Shown piece by piece: positions 15,627-63,731 of a stretch of DNA of 64,000 nucleotides (positions are counted from its first letter, which is position 1; every line of letters starts with the position of its first letter). Made by a program: the position numbers and the translations under genes. Source of the stretch: Candidatus Heimdallarchaeum aukensis. GTDB taxonomy: Archaea; Asgardarchaeota; Heimdallarchaeia; Heimdallarchaeales; Heimdallarchaeaceae. Below the pieces are notes generated by a model. It had not been told where the DNA came from, made no database searches, and saw only the letters and a list, made by a program, of their open reading frames with translations. Location: contig CP084166.1 in assembly GCA_021513695.1 (NCBI GenBank), forward strand, positions 2,080,001 through 2,144,000, given 5' to 3'.

Positions 15627-16622
15627 TTGGCTATCTTATCTGGTGGTGATTCGAAGCGTTATAAGCAGAAAGGTAAACTTATAGATAAAGCATTAATGGA
15701 AGTAAATACCAAGCCTCTGCTTTTTAAAATAGTTGAAGATGGTCTTAATAATTACGACAATGTTATTGTATCCCTGAACAACAATAAAAGGAAAAAAAAG
15801 TATGAAAGTGTATTAAAACCCCTACTGAAAAGCGATAATGTTGAGTTTGTTGAAGATGATAAAGAAATTAATTTTATTGGAGTAGGAAAGGGAATTGCTT
15901 CTGTACTATTGAAATTATTGCCAAAAACTTCAATCCAATTCATTCCTTGTGATCGCCCTTACCTTGATGTGAAATTACTAAGACAGTTAGAGACAGTAAA
16001 AGAGGGAGTAACAATACTTATTTATCAAAGTGGATTGATTGAGCCACTGCTTGCTCTATATGCTGAAAACTATGCATTTCCTCCACTCTTTGTTTTTTCT
16101 TTTGATCTAAGCAGAGCTGACGTGTTTATCCGCTTAGCTCCTCGAATCAGGCTTTATAATGCAACAGAAATAATTGAGATGAATGATCTCAGATCTAGTT
16201 TTTTCTTAAATGTAAACACTCCAAGGTTAACAGCTTCAGACCTCTCTTTAGAAAAAGAGAAATATTTCTTACCAAAATCTAAAATTGTGGAAAGAAAAAA
16301 TCTTGAACCTCTTGATAGTATCGATTTAGATGGTGATCCTACAGAGAGAATTCACCATTTGATTGAAAGAGAACACTTTTTTTTAGCATTCTTAGTAACA
16401 AAATACCTATTTCGAAGTCAAGTTTTTGACTTTGACCTCTTTTCTTACTATGTCAACTTAACACTAAAGTCAGAGTACGAATATTGGATGGAGAAAAATA
16501 TACCTTTCTTAGGATTACATGCGCTGCAAGATTTATCACATACTTTTCAGAATAATGTGTCTAATGAAATTGACAATGAAATAAAGACTCTAAAAGAAAA
16601 AATAGGTATAAAAAAGAAATAA
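15627..16622 (+). CDS. MobA-like nucleotidyltransferase (molybdenum cofactor guanylyltransferase-like) with a roughly 130-aa C-terminal extension; TTG start
   Basis: The N-terminus (AILSGGDSKRYKQKGKLIDKAL) matches the MobA LAGGxSxRMG..DKAL motif. It is adjacent to the Mo-bisPGD formate dehydrogenase genes. An AGGAGGT lies upstream. Confidence 0.55.
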   Translation: MAILSGGDSKRYKQKGKLIDKALMEVNTKPLLFKIVEDGLNNYDNVIVSLNNNKRKKKYESVLKPLLKSDNVEFVEDDKEINFIGVGKGIASVLLKLLPKTSIQFIPCDRPYLDVKLLRQLETVKEGVTILIYQSGLIEPLLALYAENYAFPPLFVFSFDLSRADVFIRLAPRIRLYNATEIIEMNDLRSSFFLNVNTPRLTASDLSLEKEKYFLPKSKIVERKNLEPLDSIDLDGDPTERIHHLIEREHFFLAFLVTKYLFRSQVFDFDLFSYYVNLTLKSEYEYWMEKNIPFLGLHALQDLSHTFQNNVSNEIDNEIKTLKEKIGIKKK

Positions 16623-16658
16623 AGACTCTAAAAGAAAAAATAGGTATAAAAAAGAAAT
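16583..16658. repeat. perfect 38-nt tandem duplication (2 copies) spanning the stop codon of the MobA-like gene
   Basis: aaagactctaaaagaaaaaataggtataaaaaagaaat occurs twice back to back. The second copy would re-encode KTLKEKIGIKKK after the TAA. Confidence 0.9.
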
Positions 16659-16663
16659 AAAGA

Positions 16664-22965: not shown

Positions 22966-23564
22966 AATATTATTAAGGTCTACTGCTTTTTTTTTTCCTC
23001 TGTTTAAATATTTTTTGTTGAGTTATTTTTCTTCAACTGTATCTCATTTAAGTAAGTTTGATTATTAAAATTATTAATGAGTTCTTAGGCTGTTTTTAGA
23101 AAAAATAATTACTAAAGTTTTTTCTTATAGACTCTGACTTCTAGGGAAAAAATACTATCCTGTCATTTGTTATTCTTATAACCTTGCTTTTACATCAAAA
23201 AAGTTCAAACTTCAAAAATGGAATAAAAAAGTGAATAGTTTGGATTTTATACTACACATTTTCTTTGTGTAAGGTATATTGAAGTTTGAGTTAATTCTTC
23301 ACGTCTTGTTCTTTTTTGTACTGGTCTTGATTTCCAGTATTTTTCTGTTCTTCCTGTTTTTCTTTCTGCCATTTTTATCACTGTATACATAATGTCCCCT
23401 TATTTATTAAGCACTTTTAAAATCAACAGTTGTAACGCTTCTAATTGTTGGTTTTATCCTCTTTTCTTTTAATTAAGCTTCAAAAGAGAATCATTTATCT
23501 GATAAACCAAAAGGTTAAAGAGGAAATATAGAAGTGAACCACTTTTTATTACTTTTAGTGGCCA

Positions 23565-30987: not shown

Positions 30988-31326
30988 CTTTTTATACATA
31001 TTGCTTTTTCTTTTGTTTTTTTGTTTTTCTTTTTCTTTGTGCTAAAAAATTTTTTTATTAGTTACAATTTTCTTTTCTCTTTTCTTCCTTTTTTACTAAT
31101 ATTTTTCTAATAATTATCTGGGTATTACATTTTCTTTTTAATCACTTTTTGCATTGTTTCCGACATAAAACTTCTTAGTTCATTTTTTAAATAAGTATTT
31201 GCGTTTAAGCCCCCTCCCCTTTGTTTCCAATGGAGTGTGCCGTTTTTTGTTATTTTGGCCGCTCTATCGCCTTTTTCTGAAAAATATTTAACCTTATTCT
31301 TTTTTTAATATATTTCCACTGAAACA

Positions 31327-31722
31327 ATGAAAAGGTTTAATATTATATTAGGTTACTTTTTAAATAATAACATCTCAGTTAATATAGTGAAAGCAAAAAC
31401 AGGTGGTATGATGACTACAATCGCACAAGCCCAAGAAAAATTACTTGAACTCATTCATAGTAGAAATAGTATAAAGCAGACTGACACCGTTCGTATCCCC
31501 AAGCTTCCCAGTAGGATAATTGGTGAAAGAATGCTAGATGCTTTTGCCAATCAAATCCAAAATGATGTTGAAGGTTTAGAATCAGATCCATATATTGAAG
31601 ATGAATTAGTTGAAAGTTTATTAAGCACTTTAGCTTTAGCAGGGCTTGTTGGTATTGATCTTGAATCAAAATTGGAAGAGATTCTATCTTTAATGGAAAT
31701 TGTAACAGCTGATAGTTCTTAA
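31327..31722 (+). CDS. hypothetical small acidic protein (likely starts at the internal Met MMTTIAQ)
   Basis: ORF only; no motif recognized. Confidence 0.3.
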   Translation: MKRFNIILGYFLNNNISVNIVKAKTGGMMTTIAQAQEKLLELIHSRNSIKQTDTVRIPKLPSRIIGERMLDAFANQIQNDVEGLESDPYIEDELVESLLSTLALAGLVGIDLESKLEEILSLMEIVTADSS

Positions 31723-40977: not shown

Positions 40978-41719
40978 AAGATGGTTAATGATAAAAAAAT
41001 TAGGAAGCGAAATAGACTTAGATAGACTAAAAGCTGTTCTTTTTTTAAGAAAGAAAGGGAAAGACAAGGACATCAATAATCTTTTGCCACTTTTAAGTGA
41101 CAAGGATTGGAATGTAAGAAACGCTACAGCATTGACTATAATTAAACTCGTTAATCTTTATCCAGAAAAAAAAGAGGAAATCCTACTAAAGCTTCATCAA
41201 TTACTTGAAAAGAGATCCTTAGCTACAAAACTGTCTGTATTGGAAATCCTGGGACAGTTAAGAGACTATTCCTCGAAAGATTTTATCAAAAAAATTATTG
41301 AAGAAAGTGATTATGATTTACAATATGCAGCTATTAGAGCAATAGGTTATCTTGATGACGTTGACATTTTATCTTCTTTGAAAGAAGTGGTTTACTCAAA
41401 AGATTACATCACACGAAGAGCAGTGATCTTTTCAATATTGCGAATAGTTAATTCAGTTGAAGAAGAAAAGAAAGTTGAACTCCTAACTCCTCACATCCAC
41501 TTATTAATTCAAGTTTATTTAGAGTTAAATGAATTGGGCGAGGTAATCTATAAAATCCTAGATTACGGAGATCCAGAGCAATTTCCAGGAATGAAACCGT
41601 ATTCAGAATTTGAGATAATCAGATTAACTTCATTAATTGAACAATACGATTATCGAGTTCCAGTCTATAAGAACTTTGCAAAAATAATTTATCCTCTTTA
41701 TTTTCCTTTAAATAGTTGA
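40970..41719 (+). CDS. HEAT/PBS-lyase-like repeat protein
   Basis: Repeated roughly 30-aa units of the form LLxLLxDxDWxVRxxAxxAL (LLPLLSDKDWNVRNATALTIIKL; AAIRAIGYLDDVDILSSL; RRAVIFSILRIV). Confidence 0.55.
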   Translation: MFKRWLMIKKLGSEIDLDRLKAVLFLRKKGKDKDINNLLPLLSDKDWNVRNATALTIIKLVNLYPEKKEEILLKLHQLLEKRSLATKLSVLEILGQLRDYSSKDFIKKIIEESDYDLQYAAIRAIGYLDDVDILSSLKEVVYSKDYITRRAVIFSILRIVNSVEEEKKVELLTPHIHLLIQVYLELNELGEVIYKILDYGDPEQFPGMKPYSEFEIIRLTSLIEQYDYRVPVYKNFAKIIYPLYFPLNS

Positions 41720-41751
41720 ATTTAATCACCATCTATTTTTTACTTCTTGTC

Positions 41752-41898
41752 TACTGCAATTTCACTGCAACTTTTTTTGATATTTTATAAATCAAGATGT
41801 GCATTTATACTTTTGACCTTTATTCTTGCATTATTTCTTTTTTACTGCAATTTCTCTGCAGATTTAATGCAATTTCCACTGCAATTTTACTGCAATGT
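41752..41898. repeat. array of at least 7 copies of a CTGCAAT(T)T motif phased at 11-12 bp, in two clusters (41752-41770 and 41843-41898)
   Basis: The copies read actgcaatttcactgcaact, then actgcaatttctctgcagatttaatgcaatttccactgcaattttactgcaatg. They sit in a 509-nt intergenic region. Confidence 0.85.
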
Positions 41899-42228
41899 TT
41901 GAATTTATTTTATAAAATGTTATATTCTTGAATAATATAGCTTATAACTCCTAATTTTATTATGGATGTCTAATATACGTTATTGAAAGGTGGTATATTA
42001 TTATTTGTTACTTTCTTATTGTAAAGAACCCCTTATTAGATGGTGATTGTTTTATTTCCACTGGAACGAGTTATTAAGCTGAATGGTTAAAACTGCAACT
42101 ATACCCTGAAATGAGTGTTTATAGGCACTTTCTCTTTCTAGCACTTTCACTAACTTAAATAGAATGTTTGTATTAGTTTTTTTCTAATTGCTCAAAAATG
42201 TTCTCCTAGCTTAAACGTAATAATATTT

Positions 42229-42675
42229 TCATGTCTTATTTTTATGTGCAAGGATCTCTTTAATTAGCAGTAAAAGTAGAATAGGAAACAGAGAACCAAT
42301 ACAGAAAGGTATCAATTTAACGAGTAATAGCTGTATTGTTCTTAAATTTCCACATCCTTTACTATGCCAAATAAGATAAATTAATGTTAAAGTTAGACTA
42401 GTAACAAAATTAATTATTCTTAGGATGAACATGTTTGATACGATTTTACTAAATTTCCAAAGGTAGATAGTGATATTATAGGTATTAAACAGAGCTAATA
42501 GTGTTGTAATAGAAAAGAGTAAGATATAAGTTATTCCTATTGGGTATATAATGCATAATACAGTGGGAGTATATCTGATGTACAAAAACAAATATAATCC
42601 AATTAAGGTAATTGTCAAAATCCCCTCAAGAGAAAGAAAAATCGTTTCATCCCGATTGTTATTACCCAAACTCAC
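42229..42675 (-). CDS. small polytopic membrane protein, function unknown
   Basis: 148 aa with about 4 hydrophobic helices. Confidence 0.4.
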   Translation of the reverse strand: MSLGNNNRDETIFLSLEGILTITLIGLYLFLYIRYTPTVLCIIYPIGITYILLFSITTLLALFNTYNITIYLWKFSKIVSNMFILRIINFVTSLTLTLIYLIWHSKGCGNLRTIQLLLVKLIPFCIGSLFPILLLLLIKEILAHKNKT

Positions 42676-42815
42676 ATTTTAGACATGTACTCTAATTTAT
42701 ATTAATTTTATTATCTTTTGGGCTAATTATGGTAAATCCACATAAATTAGTTTATAATGTAAATAATTCTGAATCAATAAATATATTTTTCAAATAAATA
42801 GAGATGATAATATAG

Positions 42816-44798
42816 ATGCCATTAAACATCGAAACTCCTTTTACTCCTAAAGGAGACCAACCTAAAGCTATTGAACAATTAGTGGAAGGAATAAAAAAAG
42901 GGTATAAACTACAGACACTTTTAGGGACTACGGGAAGCGGGAAAACTGACAGCATAGCATGGGTCATTGACCGTCTTAAACTTCCCACTTTGGTTATTGC
43001 CCCTAACAAAACTCTCGCTGCTCAACTTTATGGTGAGTTTAAAGTTCTTTTTCCTTCAGCTCGTGTTGAGTATTTTGTTAGTTTTTATGATTATTATCAA
43101 CCTGAAGCTTATCTTCCTTCCAAGGATCTTCTTATTGAGAAAGATTTTGATATTAACGAAGAAATTGAACGCTTACGCCATTCTGCCACCGAAGCATTAG
43201 CTACTCGCGATGACGTGATAGTTGTTGCTTCTGTTAGTTGTATTTATGGCATTGGAGACCCTGCAATCTATCGAGCAAAGCGTTTAGAGCTTGTTGTTGG
43301 ACAAGAATTTGATAGAGAAGAGTTAATGACACAACTCATCAATAACCGATATGAACGTAACGATATTAATCTAACTAGAGGAAAGTTTAGGGTTCGGGGA
43401 GACACTATCGATATTTTTCCTCAGTATGGAGATTATATTTATCGTGTAGAATTTTTCGGAGATGAAATAGAAAGATTAACTTCCAGAGATCCTGTTACAT
43501 ATAACCAAGTTCGTGAATTCCAAGAACTCACCTTTTATCCTGGAACACATTATCTTACTCGTGATAATTTATTTGACCAAGCTTTAGCTGATATAGAACA
43601 AGAGCTGGAAGAACGATTGGCTGAATTAAAAAGTCAAGGTAAACTTGTTGAATATCAAAGGCTCAAACAACGGACGAAATATGATCTAGAATTACTAAGA
43701 GAGACAAAATATTGTCCTGGAATTGAAAATTATTCTCGTCATTTAGACAGAAGAAAAAAAGGAGAACCTCCTTATACTCTGATGGATCATATGCCTGATG
43801 ATTTTCTTTTGGTAATTGATGAGAGTCATCTTACTATTCCACAAATAAAAGGAATGTTTGGTGGAGACTATTCTCGAAAAAAGAATCTAGTAGATTATGG
43901 TTTTAGATTACCTAGCGCTTTTGATAATAGACCTTTAAAATTTGATGAATTTAAGAAATATATGAAAAAAGTCATCTTTACTAGTGCAACTCCTGGGCCT
44001 TATGAAATTGAGCACTCTGAACAGATAGTGGAGCAGATTATTAGACCTACAGGGCTTGTAGATCCTAAAATTGAAGTAAGAAAAACAGAAGGGCAAATTG
44101 ATGACCTATTAGGAGAAATAAAAAAACAAGTTAGGAAGGGTGGTAGAGTACTTGTTACCACATTAACAAAAGACAACGCTGAGATGCTTTCGGATTATTT
44201 AATTGATAACGGAATCAACTCTGTCTATTTACATCATGAAGTAGATACATTAGACAGAATAAACATATTAAGGGACTTAAGAATCGGAAAATATGATGTC
44301 ATAGTTGGGATTAATCTTCTTCGTGAAGGACTAGACCTTCCAGAAGTAGGGTTAGTCGCTATTCTTGATGCAGATAAAGAAGGTTTTCTAAGATCTAAAA
44401 GCTCTCTAATTCAATTAATGGGTAGAGCAAGTAGAAACGTTAGCGGGAGTGTTATTTTGTATGCTGATAAAATTACAGATTCTATGAAAGAAGCTATATT
44501 TGAGAATAACAGACGAAGAAGAATACAGATAGAATATAATCGAAAACATGGAATTAACCCTCAAACAATAAAGAAAGAAGTGAAATCCATAGTAGAAACT
44601 TTAATGCAAGTGTCTCAAAAGGAGGAAGAGGAAGAGATAACTATTGATAGAAGTGAACTCACAGTAGAAAAGATAATGGCTATTATCAATGAACTAAAAG
44701 AGAAAATGGCAGAAGCTGCTGCCAACCTAGAATTTGAAAAAGCTGCTATTTACAGAGATAAAATACGTGAAATTGAGAAGCAGGTAGATACTAAATGA
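42816..44798 (+). CDS. uvrB: excinuclease ABC subunit B
   Basis: UvrB N-terminal signature (TPFTPKGDQPKAIEQLVEGI), helicase Walker A GTTGSGKT, and a C-terminal UvrB/UvrC-interaction helix (ANLEFEKAAIYRDKIREIE). Confidence 0.9.
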   Translation: MPLNIETPFTPKGDQPKAIEQLVEGIKKGYKLQTLLGTTGSGKTDSIAWVIDRLKLPTLVIAPNKTLAAQLYGEFKVLFPSARVEYFVSFYDYYQPEAYLPSKDLLIEKDFDINEEIERLRHSATEALATRDDVIVVASVSCIYGIGDPAIYRAKRLELVVGQEFDREELMTQLINNRYERNDINLTRGKFRVRGDTIDIFPQYGDYIYRVEFFGDEIERLTSRDPVTYNQVREFQELTFYPGTHYLTRDNLFDQALADIEQELEERLAELKSQGKLVEYQRLKQRTKYDLELLRETKYCPGIENYSRHLDRRKKGEPPYTLMDHMPDDFLLVIDESHLTIPQIKGMFGGDYSRKKNLVDYGFRLPSAFDNRPLKFDEFKKYMKKVIFTSATPGPYEIEHSEQIVEQIIRPTGLVDPKIEVRKTEGQIDDLLGEIKKQVRKGGRVLVTTLTKDNAEMLSDYLIDNGINSVYLHHEVDTLDRINILRDLRIGKYDVIVGINLLREGLDLPEVGLVAILDADKEGFLRSKSSLIQLMGRASRNVSGSVILYADKITDSMKEAIFENNRRRRIQIEYNRKHGINPQTIKKEVKSIVETLMQVSQKEEEEEITIDRSELTVEKIMAIINELKEKMAEAAANLEFEKAAIYRDKIREIEKQVDTK

Positions 44799-58006: not shown

Positions 58007-59383
58007 TTGATTGTTTTAATAATGAGTTCAATAATAGAAAAGAGAATATACCAAATTACAACTTTAAAGCATAAAGATGATGTCAATCGTGTTCTTGTTG
58101 ATGAACAATACATCTATAGTGCTTCTTCTGATAAAACTGTAAAAGTTTGGGATAAATTTACATTTGATGAGGTTGCAATATTATCTCACAAAAAACAAGT
58201 AAATGACATCGCAATAGATGATAACTATGTCTATAGTGCGACCAATGATGCTCGAGTTTCTATTTGGGAAAAAAATAGTTGGGAAAATGTGACCTCCCTC
58301 CCGCATGATGGATTTGTAGAGAGAGTGGTTGTAGATGACAACTTTGTCTATACCTCTTCTGATGATTTTTCTGTTAGAATTTGGGATAAAAAAAATTGGA
58401 AGGTAGTATTAGGGTTAAGGGTATCCGGAGAAGTGAACACTCTTTTTGTAGACAAAGATTTTCTTTATACTGGAAAAGGAACAAAAGTAAAAATCTGGGC
58501 GAAAGATAACTTTGATGTTGTCACAACGATAAAATTACCTATGTTTAGTGCTGTGCGCACGATATATGTTGATGAGGATTTTATTTACATTGGAGGAAGT
58601 GAAAAAAATGTTCGTGTATTTGATAAAAATTCAAAAAAACTTGTAGCTAAACTTCCTCATTCCGCTATTTCAATCGTTTATTCAATATATGGTGATGACC
58701 AATATATTCTTACAGGGTTAAGTGACAATAAAGTTGTAGTGTGGAAAAAAAGCGATTTCTCAAAAGTTACTTTTCTAAGTATTCCAGGACAAGTGAAGTC
58801 GGTGTTCAGTGATGGAATAAGATTTTATTCTGGTAGTTCTGATAAAAAAGTTAGAGTTTTTGAACCAGCAATTTATGAAGAAAAAAGAAAGGAGTATGAA
58901 GCAAAGAGAAAAGAACAAGAATTGAAAAAGAAAAAGGAACTGGAAGAGCAAAAAAAGAAAGAAGAGGAGAAAAGAAAAAAAGAGGAGGAGAAGAAAAAAG
59001 AAAAACTTAGAAAAGAACAAATAAAAAAAGAGAAAGAGGAAGCCAAGGAAAAAGAGAAACGACAGAAAAAAGAAGAAGAAAGAAAGAAAAAAGAAGAAGA
59101 AAAGGAGAAAAAGCGAGAAGAAAGAATTACAACAATAAGAAATATCTTGAAGAAAAGTGATTCAATTGAAATTAATCTACTGATGGAAATTCTAGATTTT
59201 TCAACAAAAGCTGCTCTGCTAAAATTTTTATATAACTTACCAGAAGATTTCCCAATAATAATTAAAGATGATAAAGTGTTTTTCTCCACCCTAAATAAAA
59301 AAGAAAAAGAAGTCCATAAAGCAATAGATGACTTATTGAAAAAATATGAAGAATGGGAGCAGACTGATGTTTTTAAAATATAG
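58007..59383 (+). CDS. WD40-like 7-bladed beta-propeller protein followed by a roughly 100-aa E/K-rich single alpha-helix-type segment and a small C-terminal domain
   Basis: Seven roughly 40-aa repeats end in D-x-x-V-K/R-V/I-W-D/E-K (VYSASSDKTVKVWDK, VYSATNDARVSIWEK, VYTSSDDFSVRIWDK ...). These are followed by KEKE low complexity (EKRKKEEEKKKEKLRKEQIKKEKEE). Confidence 0.6.
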   Translation: MIVLIMSSIIEKRIYQITTLKHKDDVNRVLVDEQYIYSASSDKTVKVWDKFTFDEVAILSHKKQVNDIAIDDNYVYSATNDARVSIWEKNSWENVTSLPHDGFVERVVVDDNFVYTSSDDFSVRIWDKKNWKVVLGLRVSGEVNTLFVDKDFLYTGKGTKVKIWAKDNFDVVTTIKLPMFSAVRTIYVDEDFIYIGGSEKNVRVFDKNSKKLVAKLPHSAISIVYSIYGDDQYILTGLSDNKVVVWKKSDFSKVTFLSIPGQVKSVFSDGIRFYSGSSDKKVRVFEPAIYEEKRKEYEAKRKEQELKKKKELEEQKKKEEEKRKKEEEKKKEKLRKEQIKKEKEEAKEKEKRQKKEEERKKKEEEKEKKREERITTIRNILKKSDSIEINLLMEILDFSTKAALLKFLYNLPEDFPIIIKDDKVFFSTLNKKEKEVHKAIDDLLKKYEEWEQTDVFKI

Positions 59384-63336: not shown

Positions 63337-63731
63337 TATATTAAGGTCTAAAGGCCTTCAATCTTAGTTTTTGTTTTTTTGTGGACACACAGTGATTTGT
63401 ATTTATTGTGTCTGAAATTTCTTTTAAGATTTCATTTTTAAGTTTTCTTGTTATCAACTTGACTTTGAATAGTTTTTGTATGTTGCCTTTGATATAAGAA
63501 ATACTGTTAGAGTTGTGGCTCTACTTTTTTCTTCTTTTTCTCTTTTTTTATATAAAATGAAAACAAACATTCATAAAAAATGCTTTTTTTGTTTACTTGC
63601 TCATTTATCAGTCTCAATTAGTGATTGTCAATAATGAAATTCAATAGGTAGGATGATTTATGATTTCACTCTGGAGCTTTGAATTGGCTTTCACTTGGGA
63701 AAACTGTTGAGCTCCTTTTTCTTTTTTTTCC

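What the first reader, a model, noticed from the sequence alone, without database searches (positions are those of the whole stretch)
41720..42228. Helically phased CTGCAATTT repeat array in a 509-nt intergenic region
At least seven copies of CTGCAAT(T)T occur at 11-12-bp spacing, one per helical turn. They fall in two clusters: 41754/41765, and 41845/41856/41868/41879/41890. This places the sites on one DNA face, as expected for cooperative binding of a regulator or chromatin protein. The region lies between the HEAT-operon end and a divergent membrane-protein gene and upstream of uvrB. There is no orc1/cdc6 nearby, so an origin is less likely than a regulatory array.
Basis: seen in the sequence. 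Interest (0 to 1): 0.55.

Follow-up and report, generated by a model that had tools for sequence, protein, structure and literature searches.

The report
Tandem 11-bp repeats beside an origin box
The repeat array is real: it is a strain-variable tandem duplication in a Heimdall (Asgard) archaeon, lying next to a textbook archaeal origin-recognition box, so it is more likely an initiator-binding, origin-like site than a gene regulator, though this is untested.

Summary
Seven head-to-tail copies of ACTGCAATTTY lie at 41753-41774 and 41844-41899, spaced 11/11/12/11 bp. No Markov simulation produced a chain of more than 3.

The gene context was misread. The HEAT gene and the 148-aa membrane-protein gene converge on the 509-nt spacer, so the array is not upstream of either gene, nor directly of uvrB.

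The 11-bp phasing equals the unit length, so it follows from tandem duplication and is not separate evidence of function. Copy number varies: 2+5 in four strains, 3 in a fifth (a 113-bp indel between two units), and about one degenerate unit in a sister species.

The new result is a perfect archaeal origin recognition box (ORB) core, GTTCCAGTGGAAAT, at 42054-42067 on the minus strand, 182 bp from the array. It is 18/18 identical to Pyrococcus furiosus ORB3. It sits in a 190-nt non-coding element that is 76% conserved in the sister species. The window's top-0.2% AT-rich 40-mer lies between the array and this core.

On the minus strand the repeat units read TTGCAGTRRAAAT. The best unit equals a published ORB core. 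A second, full ORB with its G-string lies 10.7 kb away.

Best reading (about 0.35): an origin-like Orc1/Cdc6 binding platform. Rivals are a neutral minisatellite and an operator array for an unannotated small RNA.

The parts
41753..41774 (+). Repeat cluster 1: units U1 and U2 (ACTGCAATTTC, ACTGCAACTTT)
   Evidence: Conserved in strains PR6, L001/L002 and L003. In L141, U1 is fused to the U5/U6 junction.
41844..41899 (+). Repeat cluster 2: units U3-U7, spacing 11/11/12/11 bp
   Evidence: TRF period 11, 5.1 copies. A chain of 5 against at most 3 in 300 simulations.
41750..41791 (+). Module A: two repeat units, a T-rich spacer and TATTTTATAAA. It is a paralogue of 41875-41916.
   Evidence: Local alignment. 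In both modules the last CTGCAA starts 21 nt before TATAAA (41765->41786 and 41890->41911).
41875..41916 (+). Module B: paralogue of 41750-41791, ending in the TATA-like TTTTATAAAA (41908-41917)
   Evidence: This part is kept in L141 and weakly in L126.
41872..41885 (-). Best mini-ORB-like unit, at the U5/U6 junction: ATTGCAGTGGAAAT
   Evidence: ORB position-weight-matrix score 18.8 bits, second best in the window. Its core TTGCAGTGGAAAT is identical to the core of Ca. M. intestinalis ORB2 (PMC4153887 Table 2).
41898..41937 (.). AT-rich stretch (90% A+T) between the array and the ORB
   Evidence: Only 0.2% of the window's 40-mers are as AT-rich.
41985..42170 (.). Conserved non-coding element that holds the ORB
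   Evidence: 76% identical over 191 nt to L126/L127, a sister species whose HEAT protein is 64% identical. It has 1-nt indels and no codon periodicity, no Rfam match, and folds worse than shuffled sequence, z=+1.7.
42049..42070 (+). Extended ORB: GTTTTATTTCCACTGGAACGAG. The core on the minus strand, 42054-42067, reads GTTCCAGTGGAAAT.
   Evidence: The only exact TTCCAGTGGAAA in the window and the maximum possible matrix score, 25.2 bits. It is 18/18 identical to P. furiosus ORB3 and 20/22 to ORB1 (PMC1904270). The expected number of chance copies of the 18-mer in 64 kb is 1e-5. It is conserved in PR6, L001-3, L141 and L126.
42025..42036 (+). Invariant block AGAACCCCTTAT. Its minus strand carries AAGGGGT, which resembles an ORB G-string but lies 21 nt from the core.
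   Evidence: Identical in the window, L141 and L126. The spacing differs from the consensus CTTCCAGTGGAAACGAAAGGGGT.
42083..42138 (+). Two small hairpins (AUGGUU/AACUAU and CCUGAAA/UUUAUAGG) followed by a T-rich run. This could be the 3' end of a small transcript.
   Evidence: Pairing is kept in L126 and L141 through G-U-compatible one-sided changes (my reading of the alignments). With only three distinct sequences this is weak evidence.
31210..31325 (-). Second ORB locus 10.7 kb away: a full ORB with its G-string (plus strand CCCCCTCCCC-TTTG-TTTCCAATGGAG, 31210-31235) and a mini-ORB (31312-31325)
   Evidence: The blocks are conserved upstream of the orthologous 103-aa gene in two other species, L226 and L227.

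Best explanation
The CTGCAATTT sites are seven head-to-tail copies of an 11-bp unit. The copies arose by local tandem and segmental duplication within the Heimdallarchaeum endolithica lineage. They lie in a spacer between two converging genes. Next to them comes a very AT-rich 40 bp, and 182 bp away a canonical archaeal origin recognition box (ORB), which sits inside a non-coding element conserved between species. On the minus strand the units read TTGCAGTRRAAAT, which is a degenerate form of the ORB core TTCCAGTGGAAAT. My proposed mechanism is that the ORB is bound by the Orc1/Cdc6 initiator, or by another winged-helix protein that reads the same dyad. The adjacent array would then act as a low-affinity, cooperative loading platform that raises local occupancy next to an easily melted stretch. 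That would make this an orphan, origin-like site: a secondary or dormant origin, or an Orc1-dependent control site. What is shown: the array, its strain variability, the ORB match, its conservation, the AT-rich stretch and the second ORB locus. What is inferred: protein binding, cooperativity and any replication activity. The 11-bp phasing is a by-product of the unit length, although it would put every site on one face of a predicted curved segment.
For: The window contains one exact TTCCAGTGGAAA, and it lies in this spacer. About 0.016 chance copies are expected per window and 1.3e-4 in the spacer. The extended match GTTTTATTTCCACTGGAA is 18/18 identical to the P. furiosus ORB3 oligonucleotide that was shown to bind Cdc6/Orc1, and 20/22 to ORB1 (PMC1904270). 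The minus-strand core equals the Methanomassiliicoccales ORB consensus over 14 nt (PMC4153887). The ORB lies in a 190-nt non-coding element that is 76% identical in a species whose neighbouring protein is only 64% identical. That element is not coding, matches no Rfam family and is not a stable RNA fold. The second-best ORB matrix hit in the window is a repeat unit (18.8 bits). Five hits of at least 15 bits were observed against 0.44 expected; the maximum in 400 simulations was 4. Two of the five form a full ORB plus mini-ORB locus at 31.2 kb that is conserved in two further species. A 90% A+T stretch, in the top 0.2% of the window, lies between the array and the ORB. Published precedent exists: clusters of mini-ORBs accompany ORBs in Pyrococcus oriC, and M. 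thermautotrophicus Cdc6-1 binds cooperatively to DNA carrying several mini-ORBs (PMC1904270). TGCA is invariant in all 7 units while 6 of the other 7 positions vary.
Against: Only 2 of the 7 units score at least 8 bits against the ORB matrix. Six of the 7 lack the TTCC motif, and all 7 have CAA where ORBs have GAA; both motifs are described as perfectly conserved in Pyrococcus ORBs and mini-ORBs. An 11-bp pitch is shorter than a 13-bp mini-ORB, so neighbouring units could not all be occupied in the known binding mode. All ORB-like sites lie on the same strand, so there is no inverted ORB pair around the AT-rich stretch. The G-string-like GGGGT is 21 nt from the core rather than about 4-8 nt. 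No orc1/cdc6 gene occurs within -41/+22 kb. There is no extremum of cumulative GC skew at 42 kb. The array is missing in the sister species that keeps the ORB, and its copy number varies between strains, as expected for a neutral minisatellite. In Pyrococcus, isolated mini-ORBs outside oriC are not bound in vivo.
Confidence: 0.35

Rival explanations
1. The array is a neutral minisatellite. An 11-bp unit was amplified by slippage or unequal crossing-over in AT-rich spacer DNA and is now decaying. It has no function, and its resemblance to the neighbouring ORB is coincidental.
For: The copies are head to tail, so the phasing equals the unit length. Copy number is polymorphic: 2+5 units in the window, PR6 and L001-3, but 3 in L141. 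The 113-bp indel has both ends in units U1 and U5, with 27 nt of ambiguous alignment. The two clusters are a segmental duplication of a 42-nt module. The sister species L126 keeps the ORB element but has only about one degenerate unit. No further array exists in 64 kb. Most units are poor ORB matches.
Against: TGCA is unchanged in all 7 units although there are 11 differences from the unit consensus elsewhere, 3 of them at the C/T-ambiguous last position. If 9 substitutions were placed at random over 11 positions, all would miss these four positions with probability about (7/11)^9 = 0.02 (my own arithmetic, a rough estimate using the smaller count). The array is kept almost unchanged in four strains whose flanking 30 nt (41720-41749) differ at many positions. 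It abuts a conserved functional-looking element rather than lying at a random place.
Confidence: 0.3
2. The array is a set of operator or activator sites for an unknown transcription factor. It would sit just upstream of one or two TATA-like promoters that drive an unannotated small RNA of about 200 nt. That RNA would be transcribed rightwards through the conserved element and end at the hairpin and T-run near 42125-42138.
For: Each cluster ends exactly 21 nt before a TTTTATAAA box (41786 and 41911). The last unit and the box are partly kept in L141 and L126. The conserved element has two small hairpins whose substitutions stay pairable only on the plus strand, followed by a T-rich run. The spacer lies between converging genes, which leaves room for an independent transcription unit. 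The array is predicted to be curved, about 27 degrees per 30 bp, near the 99th percentile of the window.
Against: The identical 21-nt spacing follows from the module duplication, so it counts only once. TATA-like strings are common in DNA that is 68% A+T. The candidate RNA folds worse than shuffled sequence (z=+1.7), has the background G+C content and matches no Rfam family. Its best-conserved block is an 11-bp perfect DNA palindrome, TTCCACTGGAA, which fits a dimeric or winged-helix DNA-binding site better than an RNA structure. The motif occurs at no other promoter in the window.
Confidence: 0.22
3. The array is a plasmid-type iteron set or a centromere-like (parC-like) site, or a relic of an integrated mobile element's origin or partition site.
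For: Two clusters of 11-bp direct repeats around a promoter-like AT-rich box resemble the parC site of plasmid R1 (my own knowledge, not tested here). The right flank of this locus is rearranged between strains: uvrB in the window, different DNA in PR6, and NosD, transposase and Apyc1-like genes in L126.
Against: No rep, par, integrase or transposase gene lies next to the array in the window. Scans of viral contigs for the two-unit pattern and for the ORB 16-mer returned only single matches per contig, which I take as chance-level.
Confidence: 0.05

Closest known systems
ORB and mini-ORB clusters of Thermococcales oriC (Pyrococcus abyssi and P. furiosus)
   Same: The core and left flank are the same: GTTTYATTTCCACTGGAAC is 18/18 identical to ORB3 and 20/22 to ORB1. 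A strong ORB is accompanied by several shorter, weaker repeats and by AT-rich DNA. A second ORB cluster lies a few kilobases away. In Pyrococcus the two clusters flank cdc6 within 5 kb; here they are 10.7 kb apart.
   Different: There is no adjacent orc1/cdc6 gene and no inverted ORB pair. The G/C-string is misplaced at this site. The short repeats here are strictly tandem 11-mers that lack the TTCC and GAA motifs, whereas Pyrococcus has dispersed 13-mers.
Mini-ORB array of the Methanothermobacter thermautotrophicus origin
   Same: Many short direct repeats related to the ORB core; in M. thermautotrophicus the initiator binds such repeats cooperatively (as cited in PMC1904270).
   Different: Those repeats are 13 bp, each binds Cdc6-1 specifically, and they lie next to cdc6-1. 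Binding of the 11-bp units here has not been tested, and most of them score poorly against ORBs.
Lone ORBs outside origins (Ca. Methanomassiliicoccus intestinalis ORB3 and ORB4; the 30 scattered 13-bp repeats in P. abyssi)
   Same: An ORB core far from any orc1/cdc6 gene.
   Different: Those lone sites are single, and in Pyrococcus they are not bound in vivo. Here the ORB is conserved between species in non-coding DNA and has an adjacent repeat array and an AT-rich stretch.
Bacterial plasmid iterons and the R1 parC centromere (11-bp direct repeats in two clusters around a promoter)
   Same: The unit length, the two-cluster layout, the one-face phasing and the AT-rich promoter-like box are similar (my own knowledge).
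   Different: This is a different domain of life, no partner rep or par gene is present, and the unit sequence is unrelated.
Prokaryotic intergenic minisatellites (VNTRs)
   Same: Head-to-tail units, copy-number polymorphism between strains, and indel end points inside repeat units.
   Different: The core tetranucleotide is invariant, and the array lies next to a conserved protein-binding-type element.

Membership tests
Archaeal ORB / mini-ORB (Orc1/Cdc6 recognition element) | Dyad core TTCCA-N-TGGAAA | tested here: met
   42054-42067 (minus strand) reads GTTCCAGTGGAAAT, an exact match with the maximum matrix score. Among the repeat units only 41872-41885 comes close (one mismatch, 18.8 bits).
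Archaeal ORB / mini-ORB (Orc1/Cdc6 recognition element) | The invariant TTCC and GAA motifs in every repeat (Matsunaga et al. 2007) | tested here: not met
   All 7 units have CAA in place of GAA. Six of the 7 have TTTCAC, TTTTAC, TTCTCT or TTTAAT in place of TTCC.
Archaeal ORB / mini-ORB (Orc1/Cdc6 recognition element) | G-string (GGGGT) about 4-8 nt from the core in full-length ORBs | tested here: not met
   At this site AAGGGGT lies 21 nt from the core. The feature is met at the other locus, 31210-31235.
Archaeal replication origin (oriC) | At least two ORBs in inverted orientation flanking an AT-rich unwinding element | tested here: inconclusive
   Two ORB-like cores 182 bp apart flank a 90% A+T stretch, but both score on the minus strand. 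The stronger core is palindromic, so its orientation is ambiguous.
Archaeal replication origin (oriC) | An adjacent orc1/cdc6 (or whiP/cdt1) initiator gene | tested here: not met
   No such Pfam family appears in any called gene across the 64 kb.
Archaeal replication origin (oriC) | Initiator binding and replication initiation (marker-frequency peak, ARS activity) | not testable with these tools
   This needs read-depth profiles on the complete genome or biochemistry.
Tandem repeat / minisatellite | Head-to-tail copies with copy-number polymorphism between strains | tested here: met
   TRF period 11. There are 7 units in the window, PR6, L001 and L003, 3 in L141 and about 1 in L126. The indel is 113 bp, equal to the U1-U5 distance.
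Promoter-proximal operator or UAS array | A fixed position upstream of a promoter, with the same motif at other promoters of a regulon | tested here: inconclusive
   A TATA-like box lies 21 nt downstream of each cluster. No transcript is known. There is no other array in 64 kb.
Structured non-coding RNA (5S rRNA, C/D-box sRNA and others) for the conserved element | A match to a covariance model, or a stable conserved fold | tested here: not met
   Rfam gave only noise, with E of at least 1. The fold z-score is +1.7 on the plus strand and +0.6 on the minus strand.
Plasmid iterons / parC-type centromere | An adjacent rep or parMR-type gene | tested here: not met
   The neighbours are a HEAT-repeat protein, a 148-aa membrane protein and uvrBC.

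The most novel reading that the evidence does not exclude
The spacer, possibly together with the full-ORB locus 10.7 kb away, is an active orc1/cdc6-distal replication origin of a Heimdall-group Asgard archaeon. In it, a lineage-specific tandem expansion of 11-bp degenerate mini-ORBs tunes cooperative initiator loading. That would be a new origin architecture in the archaeal lineage closest to eukaryotes, and a view of initiator sites evolving by minisatellite expansion.
Probability: 0.15. Interest if true: 0.65.

Novelty: new member of a known kind. Interest (0 to 1): 0.4.

Why it matters
A 2026 review of Asgard archaea (PMC12993045) and a 2025 paper on the Asgard replication machinery (PMC12680538), both searched by keyword, describe no mapped Asgard replication origin. 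This window offers two concrete ORB-bearing loci that can be tested in a genus with closed genomes and enrichment cultures. Read-depth profiling or an Orc1/Cdc6 gel-shift assay would settle the question quickly. If the array does bind the initiator, it shows how low-affinity sites can multiply by tandem duplication next to a conserved ORB. If it does not, it is an ordinary strain-variable minisatellite, and only the neighbouring ORB element deserves attention.

Tried and rejected
Nearly all hits were single chance matches in unrelated bacteria. Its only use was to identify the organism through L119, Ca. Heimdallarchaeum endolithica PR6, CP084167.1. It says nothing about how often the motif occurs genome-wide.

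2. The metagenome scan with a conserved 20-mer of the element found one true homologue, L141.

3. Viral-contig scans for the repeat pair and for the ORB 16-mer gave only single matches per contig, which I take as chance-level.

4. I considered whether the conserved element is the 5S rRNA reported as undetectable in this genome (PMC8813620). I rejected this: no Rfam 5S hit even at E=10, background G+C content, and a fold worse than shuffled sequence.

5. A C/D-box sRNA reading, based on a weak sR16 hit, was rejected because the box motifs are absent.

6. A conserved micro-ORF (MVIVLFPLERVIKLNG) was rejected. Substitutions fall 5/4/7 over the three codon positions, there are 1-nt indels, and conservation continues through the stop codons.

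7. The 51-aa ORF spanning the array (41747-41902) was rejected because L001 has a 1-nt indel and L141 a 113-bp indel, both frameshifting.

8. The two ORB loci share no extended similarity beyond the cores; the local alignment scored below the mean for shuffled sequence.

9. Syntenic relatives at about 60% protein identity (L128, L130, L132) have neither the element, nor an ORB, nor the array between the HEAT gene and uvrB.

Full report
**Source and context.** The window is 32-37% G+C. It carries an intron-containing tRNA and genes for Arf/Ras-type GTPases, gelsolin and eIF-type factors.

One locus fetched by a pattern scan, L119, is CP084167.1:2032001-2040000 of Candidatus Heimdallarchaeum endolithica PR6. 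It aligns to the window at 97.7% identity over 6.6 kb, and the spacer itself is about 99.5% identical. The window therefore comes from a close relative of PR6, an Asgard archaeon of the Heimdall group, and not from PR6 itself.

The gene order here is:
- Arf-like GTPase, then proteins of 517, 461 and 530 aa, then the HEAT protein (plus strand, ending at 41719).
- The 509-nt spacer.
- A 148-aa membrane-protein gene on the minus strand (42675->42229).
- uvrB (42816-44798) and uvrC.

The 148-aa gene is real: it is 73% identical to an orthologue in another species. The HEAT gene and the 148-aa gene converge, so the spacer holds two gene 3' ends and no promoter of an annotated gene.

**The observation.** Seven 11-nt units (ACTGCAATTTY) lie at 41753-41774 and 41844-41899. 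Spacing within the second cluster is 11, 11, 12 and 11 bp.
- Three units match CTGCAATTT exactly, three have one mismatch and one has two.
- Tandem Repeats Finder reports period 11 with 5.1 copies.
- A chain of 5 at 11-12 bp spacing was never approached in 300 Markov simulations, where the maximum was 3.
- Elsewhere in the window the motif is at background frequency and there is no second array.

**How the array arose.** The units are head to tail, so 11-bp phasing is simply the unit length. The single 12-bp step comes from a 1-nt insertion in U5.

Segments 41750-41791 and 41875-41916 are paralogous modules. Each has two units, a T-rich spacer and TATTTTATAAA. This explains why each cluster ends exactly 21 nt before a TATA-like box.

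Comparison across strains and species:

| Sequence | Relation to the window | Units | HEAT stop to ORB (nt) |
|---|---|---|---|
| Window, PR6, L001/L002, L003 | HEAT-uvrB region 97.7-99.7% identical (window is the reference) | 2+5 | 335 |
| L141 | HEAT operon 96.8% identical | 3 | 222 |
| L126/L127 | sister species, HEAT protein 64% identical | about 1, degenerate | 194 |

The distances of 335, 222 and 194 nt were measured directly in L003, L141 and L126; for the window, 335 follows from its own coordinates (41719 to 42055). PR6 and L001/L002 were not measured separately, but they align to the window across the spacer with only 1-2-nt indels.

L141 lacks exactly 113 bp, which is the U1-to-U5 distance, and 27 nt of its alignment at the junction is ambiguous. 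The window's U5 carries a private C-to-A change.

The array is therefore young, specific to this lineage and variable in copy number. Within the units, TGCA is invariant while 6 of the other 7 positions vary.

**What lies next to the array.** Directly after U7 comes a 40-bp stretch that is 90% A+T, in the top 0.2% of the window.

From about 41985 to 42170 the sequence is 76% identical to the DNA downstream of the HEAT gene in the sister species. At that evolutionary distance unconstrained spacer DNA should be randomised.

This element is not coding. It has 1-nt indels, its substitutions spread 5/4/7 over the codon positions, and conservation runs through stop codons. It matches no Rfam family. 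It folds worse than shuffled sequence (z=+1.7).

Its best-conserved part contains the 11-bp palindrome TTCCACTGGAA:
- On the minus strand, 42054-42067 reads GTTCCAGTGGAAAT. This is the only exact TTCCAGTGGAAA in the window and it reaches the highest possible score of a matrix built from 15 published ORBs.
- Extended, GTTTTATTTCCACTGGAACGAG is 18/18 identical to the P. furiosus ORB3 oligonucleotide and 20/22 to ORB1, both shown to bind Cdc6/Orc1 (PMC1904270).
- The core also equals the Methanomassiliicoccales ORB consensus. The archaeal consensus is CTTCCAGTGGAAACGAAAGGGGT (PMC4153887).
- The expected number of chance copies in 64 kb is 0.016 for the 12-mer and 1e-5 for the 18-mer.
- The core is kept in PR6, L001-3 and L141. 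In L126 it reads TCCACTGGAAAC on the minus strand.

**Relation of the repeats to the ORB.** On the minus strand the units read ATTGCAGTAAAAT, ATTGCAGTGGAAAT, ATTGCATTAAAT, TCTGCAGAGAAAT and GTTGCAGTGAAAT, among others.

The U5/U6 junction (41872-41885) scores 18.8 bits, second best in the window. Its core is identical to that of Ca. M. intestinalis ORB2, TTTGCAGTGGAAAT. It lies 182 bp from the main ORB, with the AT-rich stretch in between.

The other units are much weaker. Only one more reaches 8 bits. They also lack the TTCC and GAA motifs reported as perfectly conserved in Pyrococcus repeats.

**A second ORB locus.** The same matrix found hits at 31223 and 31312 on the minus strand.

The first is a full-length ORB with a correctly spaced G-string. 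The plus strand reads CCCCCTCCCC-TTTG-TTTCCAATGGAG at 31210-31235. It lies between tRNA-Thr and a conserved 103-aa gene.

The C-string-plus-core block, and two further blocks (GGTATTACATTTT and TCCGACATWAA), are conserved upstream of the orthologous gene in two other species.

The window has five matrix hits of at least 15 bits, all on the minus strand. The expectation is 0.44, and the maximum in 400 simulations was 4. About 110 kb of other Heimdall-group loci gave one non-homologous hit at that level. This genus therefore appears to use canonical ORBs, and they are concentrated in two conserved non-coding regions 10.7 kb apart.

**Interpretation.** My best reading, with confidence about 0.35, is that the spacer is an origin-like Orc1/Cdc6 (or ORB-reading winged-helix) binding region and that the array is an accessory, cooperative, low-affinity platform.

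The precedents are the ORB and mini-ORB clusters of Pyrococcus oriC and the cooperative binding of M. thermautotrophicus Cdc6-1 to multiple mini-ORBs.

Evidence against this reading:
- The poor ORB scores of most units.
- The 11-bp pitch, which is shorter than a 13-bp mini-ORB.
- The same-strand orientation of all ORB-like sites.
- The misplaced G-string at this site.
- The absence of an orc1/cdc6 gene within -41/+22 kb.
- No GC-skew extremum at 42 kb.
- The absence of the array in the sister species that keeps the ORB.
- The lack of in vivo binding of isolated mini-ORBs in Pyrococcus.

The rivals are:
- **A neutral minisatellite (0.30).** This is supported by the polymorphism and the duplication history.
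- **An operator array for an unannotated small RNA (0.22).** It would run from about 41940 to about 42140. It is supported by the TATA-like boxes and by two small hairpins followed by a T-run, whose substitutions stay pairable on the plus strand. It is weakened by the poor fold and by the palindromic DNA-type core.
- **A mobile-element iteron or centromere relic (0.05).**

A wedge-model estimate puts the array's intrinsic curvature at about 27 degrees per 30 bp, near the 99th percentile of the window. I recalled the model parameters from memory, so this is approximate. Curvature is compatible with all of the protein-binding readings.

**Novelty and score.** The array is a new instance of known kinds of element: tandem binding-site repeats or minisatellites beside an ORB. 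I did not find it described. The genome paper reports repeats only at 100 bp or more, CRISPR arrays and intragenic tandem repeats, and does not discuss origins (PMC8813620). A keyword search of a 2026 review found no mapped Asgard origin (PMC12993045). Interest is moderate, 0.4. The array alone may be neutral, but together with the two ORB loci it gives directly testable candidates for origins in the Heimdall group.

Noticed in passing
window 31100-31330 (also L226 3700-4010 and L227 3820-4010): A second conserved non-coding ORB locus lies between tRNA-Thr and a 103-aa gene. It has a full ORB with its G-string (31210-31235) and a mini-ORB (31312-31325). It also has invariant blocks GGTATTACATTTT and TCCGACATWAA in three species. 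It may be a better origin candidate than the spacer under study.
   Followed up: partly
window 41985-42170: This 190-nt non-coding element is 76% conserved in a sister species and contains the ORB. It is not coding, matches no Rfam family and is a poor RNA fold. In L141 the right half (after 42093) is replaced by a divergent version closer to L126, which points to recombination inside the element.
   Followed up: yes
window 42653-42815; L119 1-1421; L126 7066-9183: The right flank of this locus is a rearrangement hot spot. L001 has a 50-bp deletion that removes the start of the 148-aa gene. PR6 diverges completely to the right of 42726. L126 has a 2.1-kb insert (an ABC fragment and a NosD-like gene) between the element and the 149-aa gene, with transposase and Apyc1-like genes beyond it.
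   Followed up: partly
window 31411-31722: The ORF listed as 131 aa is really a highly conserved 103-aa protein, with 53 invariant positions among 13 homologues. It has no Pfam hit. By eye its EDELVESLL...DLE pattern resembles MazG-type NTP pyrophosphatases; I did not test this.
   Followed up: partly
window 22966-22985 and 63337-63356 (minus-strand upstream regions): Two tRNA genes (tRNA-Val and the intron-containing tRNA) share the upstream string AGACCTTAATA(A)TAT immediately before the mature 5' end. It could be a tRNA promoter or processing motif.
   Followed up: no
window 16578-16663: A perfect 38-bp tandem repeat of 2.3 copies (100% identity, TRF score 172) lies at the 3' end of gene 15627-16622.
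   Followed up: no
window 58926-59126: A long AAG/GAA-rich low-complexity repeat lies inside a WD40-repeat protein gene (58007-59383). It would encode a Lys/Glu-rich tract.
   Followed up: no
L221 1-2680: In another Heimdallarchaeaceae genome, the called gene next to a truncated uvrB gene has Pfam hits for an intein and a LAGLIDADG homing endonuclease, which suggests an intein-interrupted uvrB. The window's uvrB has no such hits.
   Followed up: no
literature (PMC8813620): The genome paper states that no 5S rRNA gene could be predicted in the Heimdallarchaeum genomes. Rfam found none in this window either.
   Followed up: partly
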